Positions 5,372 through 38,546 of a stretch of DNA of 42,269 bases are shown here, one piece after another (the first letter of the stretch is position 1; every line of letters begins with the position of its first letter). The stretch is from a virus (Duplodnaviria; Caudoviricetes). The notes under the pieces were generated by a model. It was given only the letters and a program-made list of their open reading frames with translations. It did not search any database and was not told the DNA's origin. The position numbers and the translations under genes are program-made. The stretch lies in the IMG/VR virus record IMGVR_UViG_3300032103_000031, positions 1-42,269 of that record; one strand, written 5' to 3'.

Positions 5372-5545
5372 ATGATGGACTGGTCAATGCTTGTTGGACC
5401 GATGGTTCGGCAGTTGGTGCAGTGGGGCGCTGGTGCGTTGCTTGGCGCTGGTGTTGTCACGCATAATGACGTTGCTGCCATCAGTGGTGCGATTGTGTCG
5501 CTCATCAACATCGGCTTCGTCATTCACGCCAGGACGCGCAAGTGA
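5372..5545 (+). CDS. Putative holin, 57 aa (absent from the ORF track)
   Basis: MMDWSMLVGPMVRQLVQWGAGALLGAGVVTHNDVAAISGAIVSLINIGFVIHARTRK: two hydrophobic segments, basic C-terminus, SD AGGAGG; fills the gap between endolysin and TerL. Confidence 0.75.
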   Translation: MMDWSMLVGPMVRQLVQWGAGALLGAGVVTHNDVAAISGAIVSLINIGFVIHARTRK

Positions 5546-7119
5546 CAAGCTACAGCTACAAGCTTATTGCGGGTAGTGCTGCTGACCGCTTCCATCAAAG
5601 CCGTGCGAAGGTGCGGCTTTATGGTGGAGGCTTTGCCAACGGTAAGACTACTGCACTTGTAGCTGAAACGCTGCGTGTAGCTATTGACTACCCAGGCTGC
5701 ACGATGCTGCTTGCGCGTGCGACGTATCCGAAGCTGAATAGCACGCTGCGTCGTGAGTTTATCAAGTGGTGTCCGAAGGACTGGATTAAGTCCTTTGACA
5801 AGACGAAGGAGAACACGTGCGTTCTCAAGAACGGCACCACTATTGACTTCCGCTACATCGAGCAGCAAGGCAGCGTCAACAACGACACAGGCGAGAGCAC
5901 ATCGAACCTGCTGTCGGCTAACTACGACTTCATTGCAATCGACCAGATTGACGATGTGCAGATCACGCATGAGGATTTCCTGCAACTGCTAGGTCGTCTG
6001 CGTGGCAATACACCGTATGCTGGTGAGGATCACACCATGCCGCGCACTGGTCCGCGCATGATGATCCTGTCTTGCAACCCTACTCTCGGTTGGCCGTTCA
6101 AGCGGCTTGTGAAGCCGGTGCATGACTTGCGCATGGGCAAGCACAATCCAGAGCTTATCTGTGAAGTTGACAGTGAAGGCAATCCTGTGCTTGTCAACGG
6201 ATTTCCTGTGCCGCTCATTGATGTATTTGAGGCAAGCACCTATGAGAACGCACAGAACCTCGAAGGCGATTACATCAAGCTGCTTGAAGCCACCTACCGT
6301 GGCAAGATGCGGGACAGGTATCTCCTGGGCAAGTGGGTGGCGTTTGATGGAGTTGTATATGAGGAGTTTGACGAAAACATCCACGTCGTGCCACACGACA
6401 CTCTTTGTCAATACATCGCCGAGCTTCGCTTGGAAGGGGAGCGACAGTGGCTTGTCGAAGGATACGACTTCGGCGTGACTGCGCCTAGCTGTTACCTGCT
6501 TGGGCTGACTGACAGTGAAGGGCGTGTGTTCCTGCTTGACGGCTTCTACGAGCCGAATGCTAGTATTGTGTGGCAAGCAGAGCAAATCAAGTCTGCGCGC
6601 AGTGAGCATCATCCGCCGTCCAACTGGATGGCACAGACACCGCCAGATATCTACGCTGATCCGCAGATTTTCAAGCGCACCAACGCAGGGCTTCGCACCA
6701 TCGGCAAGAGCGTGGCAGAGATGTTCCGTGAGGAAGGCATCTTCATGCAGCGGGGCAACAACAACATTATGAACGGCATTGTGAAGGTGAAGCAGTATCT
6801 TGTGCCACAACACAGCGTGCTCAATCCCTTCACACACGCATGGGGTTGTCCAAAGCTGTTCATCAGCGACAAGCTGACATGGTTCCGTGATGAGATTGCG
6901 ACGTATCGGTGGAAGCGCAGTCGTAGTGACGAAGCTGTGGACGCGCCTGTTGATGCGAAGAACCACGCGATGGACGCATTGAAATACATGCTGTCAAAGC
7001 AGCCGATGGTCGGCAAGTGGTTTGCGTCTCGTAGTGCCGCGCTGCCTCCTACGCTGCAACGCTGGAATGAGAGTGACCGAGCAGTGCGTGATGGGCGTCA
7101 TCACCGCTACGCATCGTGA
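5542..7119 (+). CDS. terL: Terminase large subunit
   Basis: Walker A GGFANGKT, Walker B-like FIAIDQ, motif III SCNP, RNase H-like GYDFG...ADP...NHAMDALKY. Confidence 0.95.
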   Translation: MTSYSYKLIAGSAADRFHQSRAKVRLYGGGFANGKTTALVAETLRVAIDYPGCTMLLARATYPKLNSTLRREFIKWCPKDWIKSFDKTKENTCVLKNGTTIDFRYIEQQGSVNNDTGESTSNLLSANYDFIAIDQIDDVQITHEDFLQLLGRLRGNTPYAGEDHTMPRTGPRMMILSCNPTLGWPFKRLVKPVHDLRMGKHNPELICEVDSEGNPVLVNGFPVPLIDVFEASTYENAQNLEGDYIKLLEATYRGKMRDRYLLGKWVAFDGVVYEEFDENIHVVPHDTLCQYIAELRLEGERQWLVEGYDFGVTAPSCYLLGLTDSEGRVFLLDGFYEPNASIVWQAEQIKSARSEHHPPSNWMAQTPPDIYADPQIFKRTNAGLRTIGKSVAEMFREEGIFMQRGNNNIMNGIVKVKQYLVPQHSVLNPFTHAWGCPKLFISDKLTWFRDEIATYRWKRSRSDEAVDAPVDAKNHAMDALKYMLSKQPMVGKWFASRSAALPPTLQRWNESDRAVRDGRHHRYAS

Positions 7120-7130
7120 AGGACAATACA

Positions 7131-9305
7131 ATGAGCGATACTACCGAAAACGTGCCACAGCCGATTGCGCGGATGCTTGACGAAGAAGCACCAATCGCTC
7201 CGGCTGACACTAACGCACCTATGTATCGGATTGATCCGACAAGCAAGGTGCCCGTCAGTAAGCACTACGGCAAGCTGTGGGATAGTCGGCTCACGGCTGC
7301 AATGGCTGCGCGCAAGGTGCATGTAGATGCGTGGGATGAGGCAATCCGCTATTACAACCACTCGCAGCTTGAATACCGCGAAGGTGGGCGCGACAACCAG
7401 AGCGGCAACCGCTACTTCTCGCGTAGGCGCAACAATCAGTGGTCCGAGACGGAGAACATCGTCTATGCGAACACGCGCGCCATCATGCCCGCACTCTACG
7501 CGAAGAACCCGCAAGCGGAGTTTAGCACGCCAGACGACGAGCGTAAGCCTTTCGTGCAGATGGTTGAAGATTTGGTCAACGCACTTGCGCCTATGGCTCA
7601 TGCACCTGGGCTGAACCTCAAGGTTCATGCGAAGCAAGCTGTGCTTGCTGCGGAGCTTTGCAATCTCGGCTGGCTTGAATACGGTTATGTGGACCGTGGG
7701 CAGTCTATGATTGCCGCGCAGGAGCAGATTGACGCGCTTGGCAAAGAGCTTGAAGAGGCCAAGGACAGCAAGACACTGCGCGAAGTCGAAGGCAAGTTGA
7801 TGGCGATGGAAGAAACACTTGCCATCCTCACACCGCCTGGACCGTTTGTGCGCTATCGTGCGCCGCATGACGTTGTATGTGACGCCAACGCTGTGTTGCC
7901 TGACTTTTCCGATGCGCAATGGATTGCGATTGCAGAAGTCTATCCGACAGACTACCTAAACGCTCGCTTCGGTGAGCGTGATGAAGATGGACGCATCAAG
8001 TCTCTCTACCAGCCGACGCATGTGCTGTCCGCTGGCGAGAGTGGCGAGGATGATATCAAGAACTTCAAGCTGTTCAAGACAGATGCAGAAGCGTCTGAAT
8101 ACGGCTACAAGAACCGTGAGGCGTTGCAGAAGGCGTATCGCACAAAGTGCTGGCGCATCTGGGACAAGATCACACGTCGTGTATTCCTCTACGCCGACAA
8201 CAAGTGGGATTGGCCTGTTTGGGTGGAGACTGATCCGTATGGCTTGCCGGGCTTCTTTCCGATGCGGGCGCTATACTTCAACACAGCACCGCTTGGCGCG
8301 TATGCACGCAGCAATGTCACGTATTACCTGGACCAGCAAGATGGCATCAATGAAATCCACGATGAGTTTCGTCGTGCTAGGCAAGATATCAAAGAGAATG
8401 TCCTGTTCGATGACGAGTTTGATCGTGACACAGTAGAGAAGTGGCTCAGGGGGGCTGCACCGTCTGCGCATGGTGTGAAGGTGCCAGAGGGTAAGACACT
8501 CAAGGACATGATCCTTGAGAAGCCCAATGCAATGCTGCGTGCGCTGCCCCTGTTCGACGCACAGCGGCTGATGCAGTCTATTGACCGCATCAGCGGCGTG
8601 AGCGATGTGCTACGCAACGTCCAGTTTAAAACCAACACAACGAACAAAGCAATCGAAAACTACAACAGCAGCACCGCAATGCGGCTGGATGAGAAGATTG
8701 ATGCTATCGAGGATGCGCTTGGTAATGTGCTATACGGCATTGGCTTTCTGTGCGCACGCTTCATGCCGCCGGAAGAGGTCGTCAGCCTTATTGGCACAGC
8801 ACGTGCCGGTGAGTGGACCAACTACGATGCGGCACAGCTTCGCATGATGTTCCGCTGCACCGCTGTTGGCGGCTCGACGCAGAAGCCCACAAGCGCAGCG
8901 AAGAAGCAACAGGCACTAGAAATGGCACGCTTGCTAATGCAAGCTGCACAGTTTGCACCTGGCACTTCTATCGAGACTATGATGACGCTGTTCGATGACG
9001 CATTTGACGAGCTTACGCTCCCTGACAACTGGGCAGAGCGTGTTGCAGAAGAGAGTAAGGCATCGCAGCGTCGTGGCAGCAGCGATGTAGGTGCGCAAGA
9101 AGGCGGTGCTGCTGGTGCAGGTGCAGGTGTTCCCGGCGCGCAGGGCGCGGGAGTGTCTGTGGAAGAGATTGCTGCGGCAGTTGATGCACTGCCGCCAGCC
9201 GCAAAGATTGCCCTGGGCCGTGCAATGGCGCAGGGCGTTCCCATCGCAGAGGCTTTGCCGGAAGTCCTGCGTGCTGTGCAAACAACCGGCGAAACGCTAC
9301 AGTAA
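7131..9305 (+). CDS. Portal protein
   Basis: ~724-aa helical protein right after TerL; IDRISGVSDVLR motif typical of podoviral portals; alternative GTG start at 7116. Confidence 0.85.
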   Translation: MSDTTENVPQPIARMLDEEAPIAPADTNAPMYRIDPTSKVPVSKHYGKLWDSRLTAAMAARKVHVDAWDEAIRYYNHSQLEYREGGRDNQSGNRYFSRRRNNQWSETENIVYANTRAIMPALYAKNPQAEFSTPDDERKPFVQMVEDLVNALAPMAHAPGLNLKVHAKQAVLAAELCNLGWLEYGYVDRGQSMIAAQEQIDALGKELEEAKDSKTLREVEGKLMAMEETLAILTPPGPFVRYRAPHDVVCDANAVLPDFSDAQWIAIAEVYPTDYLNARFGERDEDGRIKSLYQPTHVLSAGESGEDDIKNFKLFKTDAEASEYGYKNREALQKAYRTKCWRIWDKITRRVFLYADNKWDWPVWVETDPYGLPGFFPMRALYFNTAPLGAYARSNVTYYLDQQDGINEIHDEFRRARQDIKENVLFDDEFDRDTVEKWLRGAAPSAHGVKVPEGKTLKDMILEKPNAMLRALPLFDAQRLMQSIDRISGVSDVLRNVQFKTNTTNKAIENYNSSTAMRLDEKIDAIEDALGNVLYGIGFLCARFMPPEEVVSLIGTARAGEWTNYDAAQLRMMFRCTAVGGSTQKPTSAAKKQQALEMARLLMQAAQFAPGTSIETMMTLFDDAFDELTLPDNWAERVAEESKASQRRGSSDVGAQEGGAAGAGAGVPGAQGAGVSVEEIAAAVDALPPAAKIALGRAMAQGVPIAEALPEVLRAVQTTGETLQ

Positions 9306-37637: not shown

Positions 37638-38099
37638 CTACTTGAGCACCACACTGAAATGCGTCTGGAAGCCGTCGCCACCAAGCTTGCACTCGTCAAT
37701 GCGCTGCTTGGCCTCTTCGACAGAGAGCTTCGTCAACTTGACGAGCAGGTTGAGCACAGCTTCCTCTGACAGCCGACGTGGGTTGCTGCGGTTGTCAGCC
37801 GTGACGATTGCAGTGCTGCTGTCATGCACGATGTGCTTGCCCTTGACGTTGGGCACCTTCATGTTCAGCAGCACTTCCCCACGTGCGCGTTGGTAGCGTT
37901 CCTCGGCTGCGTCGCGCACAGCTTTGGCGACGTATAGCTCCTGCGCATGCGCCGCATCTTCGTCATTGGGGATCGGCAGTCGAACACCAACTGCCGTGCC
38001 GATGCGCTGGACGCATTCGCTGATCTTGAGCGGCACTTCGGCGGTGATCGGCGTGTCGTCGTCGGTGCGTGAGGCAGTGCCTCGTGCGGACTTGGACAT
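37638..38099 (-). CDS. Hypothetical protein
   Basis: 153 aa, SD GGAG. Confidence 0.75.
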   Translation of the reverse strand: MSKSARGTASRTDDDTPITAEVPLKISECVQRIGTAVGVRLPIPNDEDAAHAQELYVAKAVRDAAEERYQRARGEVLLNMKVPNVKGKHIVHDSSTAIVTADNRSNPRRLSEEAVLNLLVKLTKLSVEEAKQRIDECKLGGDGFQTHFSVVLK

Positions 38100-38128
38100 T
38101 GTATTGCTCCGTTGTTGCGTGATGCCTC

Positions 38129-38219
38129 TGCTTGGGGTTCGTCATCAACAACGACAAGGCATGTGGCTAAATCATGCCTCCCTCTCATACGTTAGCCAGA
38201 CGTATGATACCCCCAAGCA
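38129..38219 (-). ncRNA. Putative structured RNA: four-way junction with complementary loops
   Basis: 9-bp closing stem, 8-bp and 8-bp hairpins with loops CUGGCUA and AUUUAGCCA, and a 6-bp hairpin whose G-U pairs form only on the - strand. Confidence 0.6.
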
Positions 38220-38223
38220 AAGC

Positions 38224-38298
38224 TGGTGCCGGGTGCAGGACTTGAACCTGCGACCTTCGTATTACAAATACGCTGCACTACCGCTGTGCTAACCCGGC
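38224..38298 (-). tRNA. tRNA-Thr(UGU) with encoded CCA
   Basis: GCCGGGU/ACCCGGC acceptor, GCAC/GUGC D-arm, loop UU-UGU-AA, T-arm GCAGG-UUCAAGU-CCUGC, ACCA end; 75 nt. Confidence 0.93.
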
Positions 38299-38304
38299 AG
38301 TGTT

Positions 38305-38402
38305 ATTGCAGTGATGAGGACACATCCTCACGCTTGGCCGTCAGGAACTCTTCTACGCTGACGAAACATACGCCGCAGACGCCCGTAATCTGCCACTGCA
38401 AT
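38305..38402 (-). ncRNA. Putative structured RNA: four-way junction
   Basis: Closing stem AUUGCAGUG/CACUGCAAU enclosing three hairpins. Confidence 0.5.
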
Positions 38403-38412
38403 GACCTAGGCT

Positions 38413-38514
38413 GGTGTTGGCGGGTGGCGTGGGTGGCTACAACCCCTCGCAGCATGTGCTTGCACTACTGCTGCCCCACTTTAATCCCGCGCGGCTAACC
38501 ACGCCGCCAACACC
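38413..38514 (-). ncRNA. Putative rod-like structured RNA at the transcription start
   Basis: GGUGUUGGCGG/CCGCCAACACC 11-bp terminal stem, CGUGG/CCACG, inner GCAGCA/UGCUGC. Confidence 0.5.
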
Positions 38515-38546
38515 ATTATAGTAGCACAGGTGCGGGGGTATGTCAA
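38515..38546 (-). promoter_or_regulatory. Strong sigma70 promoter for the ncRNA/tRNA cassette
   Basis: TTGACA-17 nt-TACTAT(AAT) with an extended TG. Confidence 0.8.

What the first reader, a model, noticed from the sequence alone, without database searches (positions are those of the whole stretch)
38129..38219. Four-way-junction RNA with complementary kissing loops
Seen (- strand): UGCUUGGGG/CCCCAAGCA closes three hairpins, UCAUACGU-[CUGGCUA]-ACGUAUGA, GAGGCAUG-[AUUUAGCCA]-CAUGCCUU and UCGUUG-[UUGA]-UGACGA. Loops 1 and 2 are Watson-Crick complementary over 6 nt (UGGCUA/UAGCCA). The G-U pairs work only on the - strand, matching the promoter direction. Established: loop-loop pairing forms tertiary folds, or intermolecular rings as in phi29 pRNA. 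Inference: a compact tertiary RNA or a self-oligomerising RNA; no sequence relationship to pRNA is claimed.
Basis: partly seen in the sequence, partly recalled or inferred. Interest (0 to 1): 0.75.

Follow-up and report, generated by a model that had tools for sequence, protein, structure and literature searches.

The report
Kissing-loop RNA behind a phage tRNA
Directly behind a tRNA gene of an uncultured phage, at a place where one relative has a second tRNA, lies a 97-base stretch predicted to fold into a four-armed RNA whose two loops are exact complements; it matches no RNA family searched here and is likely cut out as a compact, self-locked RNA that would serve as a decoy for a host RNA-binding protein, but neither its expression nor its job has been shown.

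Summary
The fold is real: -38.8 kcal/mol, z -4.65. Its two open loops pair over 6 Watson-Crick bases, the only such case among 876 local four-way folds of this phage (random loops 0.2%).

It is the last of four structured RNAs behind a promoter, starting one base after tRNA-Thr. Relatives fill this slot with tRNA-Leu, a plain hairpin, other folded RNAs or nothing.

It is not a tRNA, not in Rfam and not a pRNA (the phage has a terminase). No homologue was found beyond near-identical copies of this phage, so covariation, the key test, could not be run. No RNA run holding it was listed.

Best reading (0.35): a processed, loop-locked monomer acting as a protein decoy.

The neighbour RNA1 carries nearly the same hexamer pair (post hoc p about 0.004, but 12 kcal/mol uphill). 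The scan noted RNAs of this general kind in other phage tRNA clusters before, none with look-alike sequence.

The parts
38518..38546 (-). sigma70-type promoter with extended -10 (TTGACA-17-TACTAT); predicted start about 38514-38511
   Evidence: a similar promoter stands at the same slot in L204, L409, L238 and L415
38412..38514 (-). RNA1: separate four-way fold with a long closing stem ending ACCA; contains UGGUUA and UAGCCA, nearly the hexamer pair of the finding
   Evidence: z -4.48; weak tRNA-model score 10.8 bits, equal to its reverse strand 10.1; hexamer test; a C-to-U variant in run X2 keeps the pair as G-U
38302..38404 (-). RNA2: weaker four-way fold, ends AACA just before the tRNA; no loop pair above 4 nt
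   Evidence: z -2.32, 4 of 200 shuffles as good
38224..38298 (-). tRNA-Thr(UGU) with encoded CCA
38126..38222 (-). RNA4, the finding: four-way junction; closing stem P1 9 bp (38219-38211/38137-38129), 12 bp when extended; begins one base after the tRNA CCA
38185..38207 (-). P2, 8 bp, loop CUGGCUA (38199-38193); pairing hexamer 38198-38193 at the 3' end of the loop
38156..38180 (-). P3, 8 bp, loop AUUUAGCCA (38172-38164); pairing hexamer 38169-38164 at the 3' end of the loop
38139..38155 (-). P4, 6 bp in two registers (0.73 and 0.24); no T-loop consensus
38107..38110 (-). Shine-Dalgarno-like GGAG of the next gene, outside the fold
   Evidence: sequence
37638..38099 (-). 153-aa ORF of no Pfam or PHROG family; its orthologues mark the slot in relatives

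Best explanation
A 97-base four-way fold with exactly complementary loops lies one base behind tRNA-Thr in a phage slot whose RNA content differs between relatives; it is likely co-transcribed, likely cut free during tRNA maturation, predicted to lock its two loops within one molecule, and would then act in trans as a nuclease-resistant decoy for a host RNA-binding or tRNA-attacking protein. Shown by sequence and calls: the secondary structure, the loop complement, the position and the variable slot. Inferred: transcription (0.9); a discrete RNA released by tRNA 3' processing and trimmed back to the 12-bp stem (0.6); the kiss in cis, stacked on P3/P4 with P2 bent about 80 degrees (0.65); the decoy role (about 0.5 given the rest).
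For: Fold and loop statistics.

The same junction occurs in T4, where the stable RNA D begins 1 nt after tRNA-Arg and RNA C 6 nt after RNA D. Both are expressed and of unknown function (passages of PMC9697503, and PMC12685909).

In L204 a similar promoter, tRNA-Thr and the orthologous ORF flank a tRNA-Leu(UAA) at this position. tRNA-Leu stands ahead of the orthologue in 9 further loci of one close group (L230, L231, L232, L234, L240, L241, L247, L249, L250; one extra ORF between in L230 and L241). Other folded RNAs lie in or near the slot in L415 (z -6.7), L419 (z -4.8) and L229 (z -3.3). So the slot carries interchangeable trans-acting RNA cargo.

Phage tRNAs can cancel tRNA-cleaving defences (abstract and opening of 10.1101/2023.03.15.532788). 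An intramolecular loop-loop helix of 5 bp locks the protein-free Bacillus SRP Alu RNA into a tRNA-like shape (passages of PMC4231752). A cis kiss is sterically possible (16 of 100 starts).
Against: No homologue was found, so there is no covariation. No terminator-like site or CCA marks a 3' end, so the RNA may stay attached to the mRNA. It lacks the T-loop, D-loop and acceptor end by which proteins recognise tRNA, and no partner protein is identified.

The cis geometry is narrow. It gave 0 of 86 and 0 of 40 feasible starts with the kiss stacked on P2, and 0 of 106 and 0 of 90 with arm 3 in the minor register stacked on P1. The closest complete relative (G003) has only a 31-nt hairpin in the slot.
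Confidence: 0.35

Rival explanations
1. Cis-acting 5' stabiliser: after the tRNA is cut out, the fold stays on the downstream mRNA as a 12-bp stem flush with the new 5' end, locked by the kiss, and slows 5'-dependent decay.
For: No terminator-like site before the ORF, whose start lies 29 nt after the 9-bp stem. The stem begins 1 nt after the tRNA. In G003, G046 and L238 a single hairpin stands between the promoter and the orthologous gene (z -6.1 in L409).
Against: A plain hairpin would do the job, and three arms plus a kiss are more than needed. In L204 and the L231 group the place holds a tRNA that is excised. L208 and L209 have no RNA there.
Confidence: 0.22
3. Remnant or remodelled tRNA-Leu without a function of its own; the loop complement is chance.
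For: Exact position of tRNA-Leu in L204. Weak alignment to that tRNA (z 2.2, 8 of 300 shuffles, one of 18 comparisons). Loop 2 contains U-UAG.
Against: A model built from 7 tRNA-Leu genes of related phage loci gives no full-length hit (best 5.2 bits on a fragment). The stems are longer and cleaner than in a tRNA, which decay does not produce. The kiss has a 0.2% chance.
Confidence: 0.1
4. Antisense regulator: loop 2 (UAGCCA) pairs with AUGGCUA gene starts, and loop 1 is a built-in target mimic.
For: 3 of 55 predicted gene starts of the window read AUGGCUA (capsid 10401, DNA polymerase 28976, ORF 39398), tied for the commonest start hexamer.
Against: Three other hexamers are equally common. Pairing stops at 6 bp because the A of AUG faces a C. 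11 of 80 related capsid genes start the same way, while no copy of this RNA turned up in the related records searched.
Confidence: 0.07
5. Riboswitch-like or ribozyme element: P4 swaps onto the leader of the next gene, or the docked four-way junction cleaves.
For: CGUUGUUG in P4 complements CAACAACG just 5' of the Shine-Dalgarno site. The arms have the stacking order of a docking four-way junction (recalled for the hairpin ribozyme).
Against: The swapped fold is 7.3 kcal/mol worse and P1 is 12 bp. There is no riboswitch or ribozyme match in Rfam at E up to 10, and no internal loops in the arms.
Confidence: 0.05

Closest known systems
T4 RNA C and RNA D (species 1 and 2 RNAs; NC_000866.4 70908-71171)
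   Same: Small non-tRNA RNAs directly behind a tRNA in a phage tRNA cluster. RNA C is predicted to have two arms with complementary tips (4 bp). Function unknown.
   Different: RNA C has a T-arm with a UUCGAAU loop and is 139 nt. The finding has no T-loop, a 6-bp kiss and no sequence similarity (31 of 300 shuffles as good).
Bacillus subtilis SRP Alu domain (PMC4231752, passages)
   Same: Two neighbouring hairpins locked by a 5-bp loop-loop helix, 5' and 3' ends clamped by a stem, protein-free and tRNA-like in shape.
   Different: The Alu domain has two three-way junctions, a UGU linker and helix 5 leading to the S domain. Here there is one four-way junction, a GAGG linker and a stand-alone 97-mer; no SRP match in Rfam.
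phi29 prohead RNA (PMC5066667, passages)
   Same: Two complementary loops on one small phage RNA that could link copies.
   Different: pRNA is a three-way junction known only from phi29-like motors, where it stands in for part of the large terminase. This phage has small and large terminase and a family A polymerase.
manA RNA (RF01745; 10.64898/2026.07.01.735769, parts 1-2 of 5)
   Same: Short phage-associated RNA; kissing loops.
   Different: manA has many more arms and two kinds of interface per monomer; no Rfam match here.
allo-tRNAs and polycistrons of irregular tRNAs (PMC5389517, passages)
   Same: Tandem irregular cloverleaf-like RNAs; some occur in phages.
   Different: Those keep a 12-bp acceptor branch, an anticodon arm and a T-arm. 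The finding has none of these.

Membership tests
tRNA / allo-tRNA / pseudo-tRNA-Leu | T-arm with T-loop consensus stacked on the acceptor stem | tested here: not met
   Third loop is GUU or UUGA; no hit with Rfam tRNA, ARAGORN or a clade tRNA-Leu model
tRNA / allo-tRNA / pseudo-tRNA-Leu | NCCA 3' end | tested here: not met
   The stem is followed by G-rich leader, no CCA
tRNA / allo-tRNA / pseudo-tRNA-Leu | Descent from the tRNA-Leu of the same slot | tested here: inconclusive
   Same position; alignment z 2.2, 8 of 300 shuffles, not significant over 18 comparisons
T4 RNA C / RNA D kind (non-tRNA RNAs of phage tRNA clusters) | Lies in a tRNA cluster directly behind a tRNA 3' end | tested here: met
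   1 nt after tRNA-Thr; T4 RNA D is 1 nt after tRNA-Arg
T4 RNA C / RNA D kind (non-tRNA RNAs of phage tRNA clusters) | Sequence or T-arm shared with RNA C or RNA D | tested here: not met
   31 and 13 of 300 shuffles align as well; no T-arm
T4 RNA C / RNA D kind (non-tRNA RNAs of phage tRNA clusters) | Accumulates as a discrete stable RNA | not testable with these tools
   Needs RNA reads or a Northern blot from infected cells
phi29 pRNA | phi29-type motor without a conventional terminase | tested here: not met
   Small terminase 1825-2421, large terminase 5542-7119, portal 7116-9305; PMC5066667 passages
phi29 pRNA | Three-way junction core | tested here: not met
   Four-way junction
phi29 pRNA | Intermolecular loop-loop pairing | tested here: inconclusive
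   The coarse model allows cis; the fully stacked form needs trans
SRP Alu domain | Loop-loop helix between two adjacent hairpins | tested here: met
   6 predicted pairs against 5 in B. subtilis
SRP Alu domain | UGU linker, helices 2 and 5, S domain | tested here: not met
   Linker is GAGG; no SRP match
Any Rfam 15 family (manA, C4, Y RNA, purine riboswitch, small ribozymes) | Score at the gathering threshold, or any hit at E up to 10 over the element | tested here: not met
   Only the tRNA reaches threshold; no hit overlaps 38126-38222
Antisense RNAs of the C4 type | Loop complements of useful length in target leaders | tested here: not met
   Only 6-nt matches at 3 of 55 starts, no enrichment; family definition recalled

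The most novel reading that the evidence does not exclude
RNA4 and RNA1 share one loop code (UGGYUA / UAGCCA) and co-assemble, hand in hand, into an RNA-only hetero-oligomer encoded by the tRNA operon of an ordinary terminase phage: a two-part RNA particle that traps a host defence factor, unrelated to DNA packaging.
Probability: 0.08. Interest if true: 0.8.

Novelty: new variant of a known kind. Interest (0 to 1): 0.42.

Why it matters
Small non-tRNA RNAs in phage tRNA clusters have had no known job since T4 RNA C and D. This one is small, almost perfectly paired and has a single 6-bp tertiary contact, so loop-swap experiments can decide cis against trans in one gel.

Its clade supplies a natural comparison: tRNA-Leu, a bare hairpin, other folded RNAs or nothing at the same slot. 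That makes it testable whether such RNAs stand in for a tRNA's anti-defence role.

The weakness is that it is known from one phage only, with no covariation and no expression data.

Tried and rejected
Homologue searches, all empty apart from near-identical copies of this phage (L001, 99.97% over 6459 bases):
- Loop-pair patterns in viral contigs: 120 stretches from 7 of 64 parts; 35 of 35; 45 of 45.
- One pattern in prokaryote genome contigs: 0.
- BLAST against phages and plasmids: only tRNA hits and short chance matches.
- A single-sequence covariance model over 100 loci, 80 virus records, 55 loci and the window.
- A hexamer pattern in 80 records: 4 records, no more than the reversed control.
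- A fold-and-kiss scan of 120 tRNA-Thr neighbourhoods: the phage itself plus two untidy folds, L390 and L401.
- The slot protein in genome contigs: none.
These searches are weak for a family with changed loops, because the model has one sequence and the patterns need exact letters.

Expression: no RNA holder listed. Contigs of runs X1 and X2 are identical over the element, and X3-X6 do not cover it. None of this bears on expression.

Rejected readings: degenerate tRNA-Leu; a switch onto the Shine-Dalgarno region; start-codon antisense; pRNA. A DNA-level palindrome is not favoured: both strands fold alike as DNA, and the element sits among RNA genes. The RNA2 / T4 RNA C alignment (1 of 300 shuffles, one of 18 comparisons) was not followed up.

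Literature searches listed no paper on this element. Most subscription papers are not in that library, and no supplements were read; the bioRxiv supplements of the manA preprint could bear on the comparison.

Full report
Setting. The window is a whole virus record of 42,269 bases. It encodes small and large terminase, portal, major head protein, a family A DNA polymerase in two ORFs, primase-helicase and a RecD-like helicase. Its capsid protein is 23-28% identical to the nearest named phages but has 414 relatives in uncultured viral contigs, of which the best 80 were kept. The host is unknown.

Observation. On the - strand, 38219-38129 folds as described: -38.8 kcal/mol, z -4.65, 0 of 200 shuffles. 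The closing stem extends to 12 bp, so the unit is 38222-38126 and starts one base after the CCA of tRNA-Thr. P1, P2 and P3 keep pairing probabilities of 0.99-1.00 within the whole 430-nt leader, and both loops are open. The loops pair over 6 Watson-Crick bases. Random 7- and 9-nt loops do so in 195 of 100,000 draws, and no other of 876 overlapping local four-way folds on either strand of the phage reaches 6. A looser descriptor that ignores folding matches 14 sites in the window, but only this one has two 8-bp stems. The + strand folds as significantly (z -5.62), so the strand is set by context.

Context. A consensus promoter at 38546-38518 is followed without gaps by RNA1 (four-way, z -4.48), RNA2 (four-way, z -2.32), tRNA-Thr(UGU), the finding and a 153-aa ORF of no family. 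Rfam recognises only the tRNA. No terminator-like site follows the finding.

The slot in relatives. Using the orthologue of the 153-aa gene as marker, the DNA in front of it differs by lineage:
- L204: a similar promoter, tRNA-Thr and then tRNA-Leu(UAA) where the finding stands.
- L230-L232, L234, L240, L241, L247, L249 and L250, one close group: a hairpin and tRNA-Leu, two of them with an extra ORF between.
- G003 (closest complete relative, capsid 84%), G046 and L238: the promoter and one hairpin.
- L415 and L419: three-way RNAs behind the promoter (z -6.7, -4.8). L229: a four-way RNA between tRNA-Thr and tRNA-Leu (z -3.3). None has a loop pair of 4 bases or more, and none matches Rfam.
- L208, L209, L416 and L417: no such RNA.
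The slot therefore takes interchangeable RNA cargo.

Is it a rebuilt tRNA-Leu? The position invites this, but a covariance model from 7 tRNA-Leu genes of related phage loci finds tRNA-Thr at 40.4 bits, RNA1 at 10.8 bits (its reverse strand 10.1) and only fragments of at most 5.2 bits in the finding. Direct alignment to the L204 tRNA is marginal (8 of 300 shuffles, one of 18 comparisons). There is no T-loop and no CCA. Descent from a tRNA is neither shown nor excluded; it does not work as one.

Homologues. None was found apart from near-identical copies of the same phage. The searches were three loop-pattern scans of viral contigs (checked), one of prokaryote genomes, BLAST of phages and plasmids, and a one-sequence covariance model over 100 and 55 loci and 80 virus records. 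The first scan covered only 7 of 64 parts. Covariation could not be tested. Two public DNA runs hold the element unchanged.

An echo in RNA1. RNA1 can be drawn with a 5-bp stem closing GUGGUUA and a 3-bp stem closing UUGUAGCCA: the same loop sizes, the same register and the same hexamers but for one change that leaves a G-U pair. Shuffles of the RNA1-RNA2 region give this in 175 of 40,000 cases, and both hexamers in order without stems in 1,928 of 40,000. Against it, the test was made after seeing the match, and forcing both hairpins costs 12.4 kcal/mol. I treat it as a lead only.

Cis or trans. In a coarse model of ideal A-form helices (constants recalled), a kiss stacked on both stems puts the ends of the 4-nt linker 59 A apart where 34.5 A is allowed, so that form needs two molecules. 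Within one molecule the kiss fits when stacked on P3/P4 with P2 bent by 68-94 degrees (16 of 100 starts). It does not fit when stacked on P2 (0 of 86, 0 of 40), or with the minor arm 3 register stacked on P1 (0 of 106, 0 of 90). The model is crude and the sampling small; it shows that both modes are open. A natural intramolecular loop-loop helix of 5 bp exists in the Bacillus SRP Alu domain (PMC4231752, passages). Intermolecular kisses build the manA cages (10.64898/2026.07.01.735769, parts 1-2 of 5).

Mechanism. I commit, at 0.35, to a processed, loop-locked monomer that acts in trans as a decoy for a host RNA-binding or tRNA-attacking protein. Position, fold and slot variability are shown; transcription, release, cis locking and the decoy role are inferred. 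The grounds are the T4 precedent of stable RNAs abutting tRNAs (passages), the exchange with tRNA genes, and the reported anti-defence use of phage tRNAs (abstract and opening of 10.1101/2023.03.15.532788). The main rival is a 5' stabiliser left on the downstream mRNA (0.22), supported by the missing terminator and the bare hairpin in G003. An oligomer follows (0.17). A switch onto the Shine-Dalgarno region is 7.3 kcal/mol uphill. Antisense pairing to AUGGCUA starts is not enriched (3 of 55).

Comparison and novelty. It works like an Alu-type or RNA C-type loop-locked small RNA, but fails membership of tRNA, allo-tRNA (PMC5389517, passages), pRNA (PMC5066667, passages), SRP Alu, T4 RNA C and every Rfam family. 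Five literature searches listed no description of it; no supplements were read. Earlier notes of this scan describe several kissing-loop RNAs in other phage tRNA clusters and none with look-alike sequence. They are unchecked leads, and the decoy and swappable-slot wording overlaps with them. Verdict: a real, uncatalogued variant of a known but unexplained kind, known from one phage. Interest 0.42.

Noticed in passing
window 38514-38412 (-): RNA1, a second uncatalogued four-way RNA at the promoter start. If transcription starts at 38511 it has an 8-bp terminal stem with a free ACCA end, like a tRNA acceptor. Weak tRNA-model score; one compatible C-to-U variant in run X2.
   Followed up: partly
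window 38404-38302 (-): RNA2, a third four-way fold (z -2.3) ending AACA. It aligns to T4 RNA C better than 299 of 300 shuffles (one of 18 comparisons).
   Followed up: partly
L415 (G035), reverse strand, about 768-885: 118-nt three-way RNA behind the slot promoter, z -6.7, with ACCUCC in or beside both loop regions, resembling an anti-Shine-Dalgarno word (motif recalled); no Rfam match.
   Followed up: partly
L419 (G028) about 1065-1290: 95-nt three-way RNA (z -4.8) followed by a hairpin with a CCUCCC loop behind the slot promoter.
   Followed up: partly
L229 (G032) about 1729-1855: 126-nt four-way RNA (z -3.3) between tRNA-Thr and tRNA-Leu, no Rfam match.
   Followed up: partly
L231 about 475-497, also L230, L232, L234, L240, L241, L247, L249, L250: A 10-bp hairpin just before tRNA-Leu contains the same UAGCCA/UGGCUA duplex as the kiss, as a nested stem followed by a short U-rich run (terminator-like). 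It may be chance.
   Followed up: no
window 37606-37598 (-): C/U-rich CCUCCUUCC in the gap behind the 153-aa ORF; a similar loop follows tRNA-Thr in L207.
   Followed up: no
window 28976-27294 and 27249-26353 (-): Family A DNA polymerase in two ORFs, the first with an N-terminal uracil-DNA glycosylase domain.
   Followed up: no
window gene starts, e.g. 7131, 9318, 10401, 34225, 37063, 38099: Several genes have ATTACA or AATACA directly before ATG, complementary to the anticodon loop of the phage's tRNA-Thr(UGU); not tested against chance.
   Followed up: no
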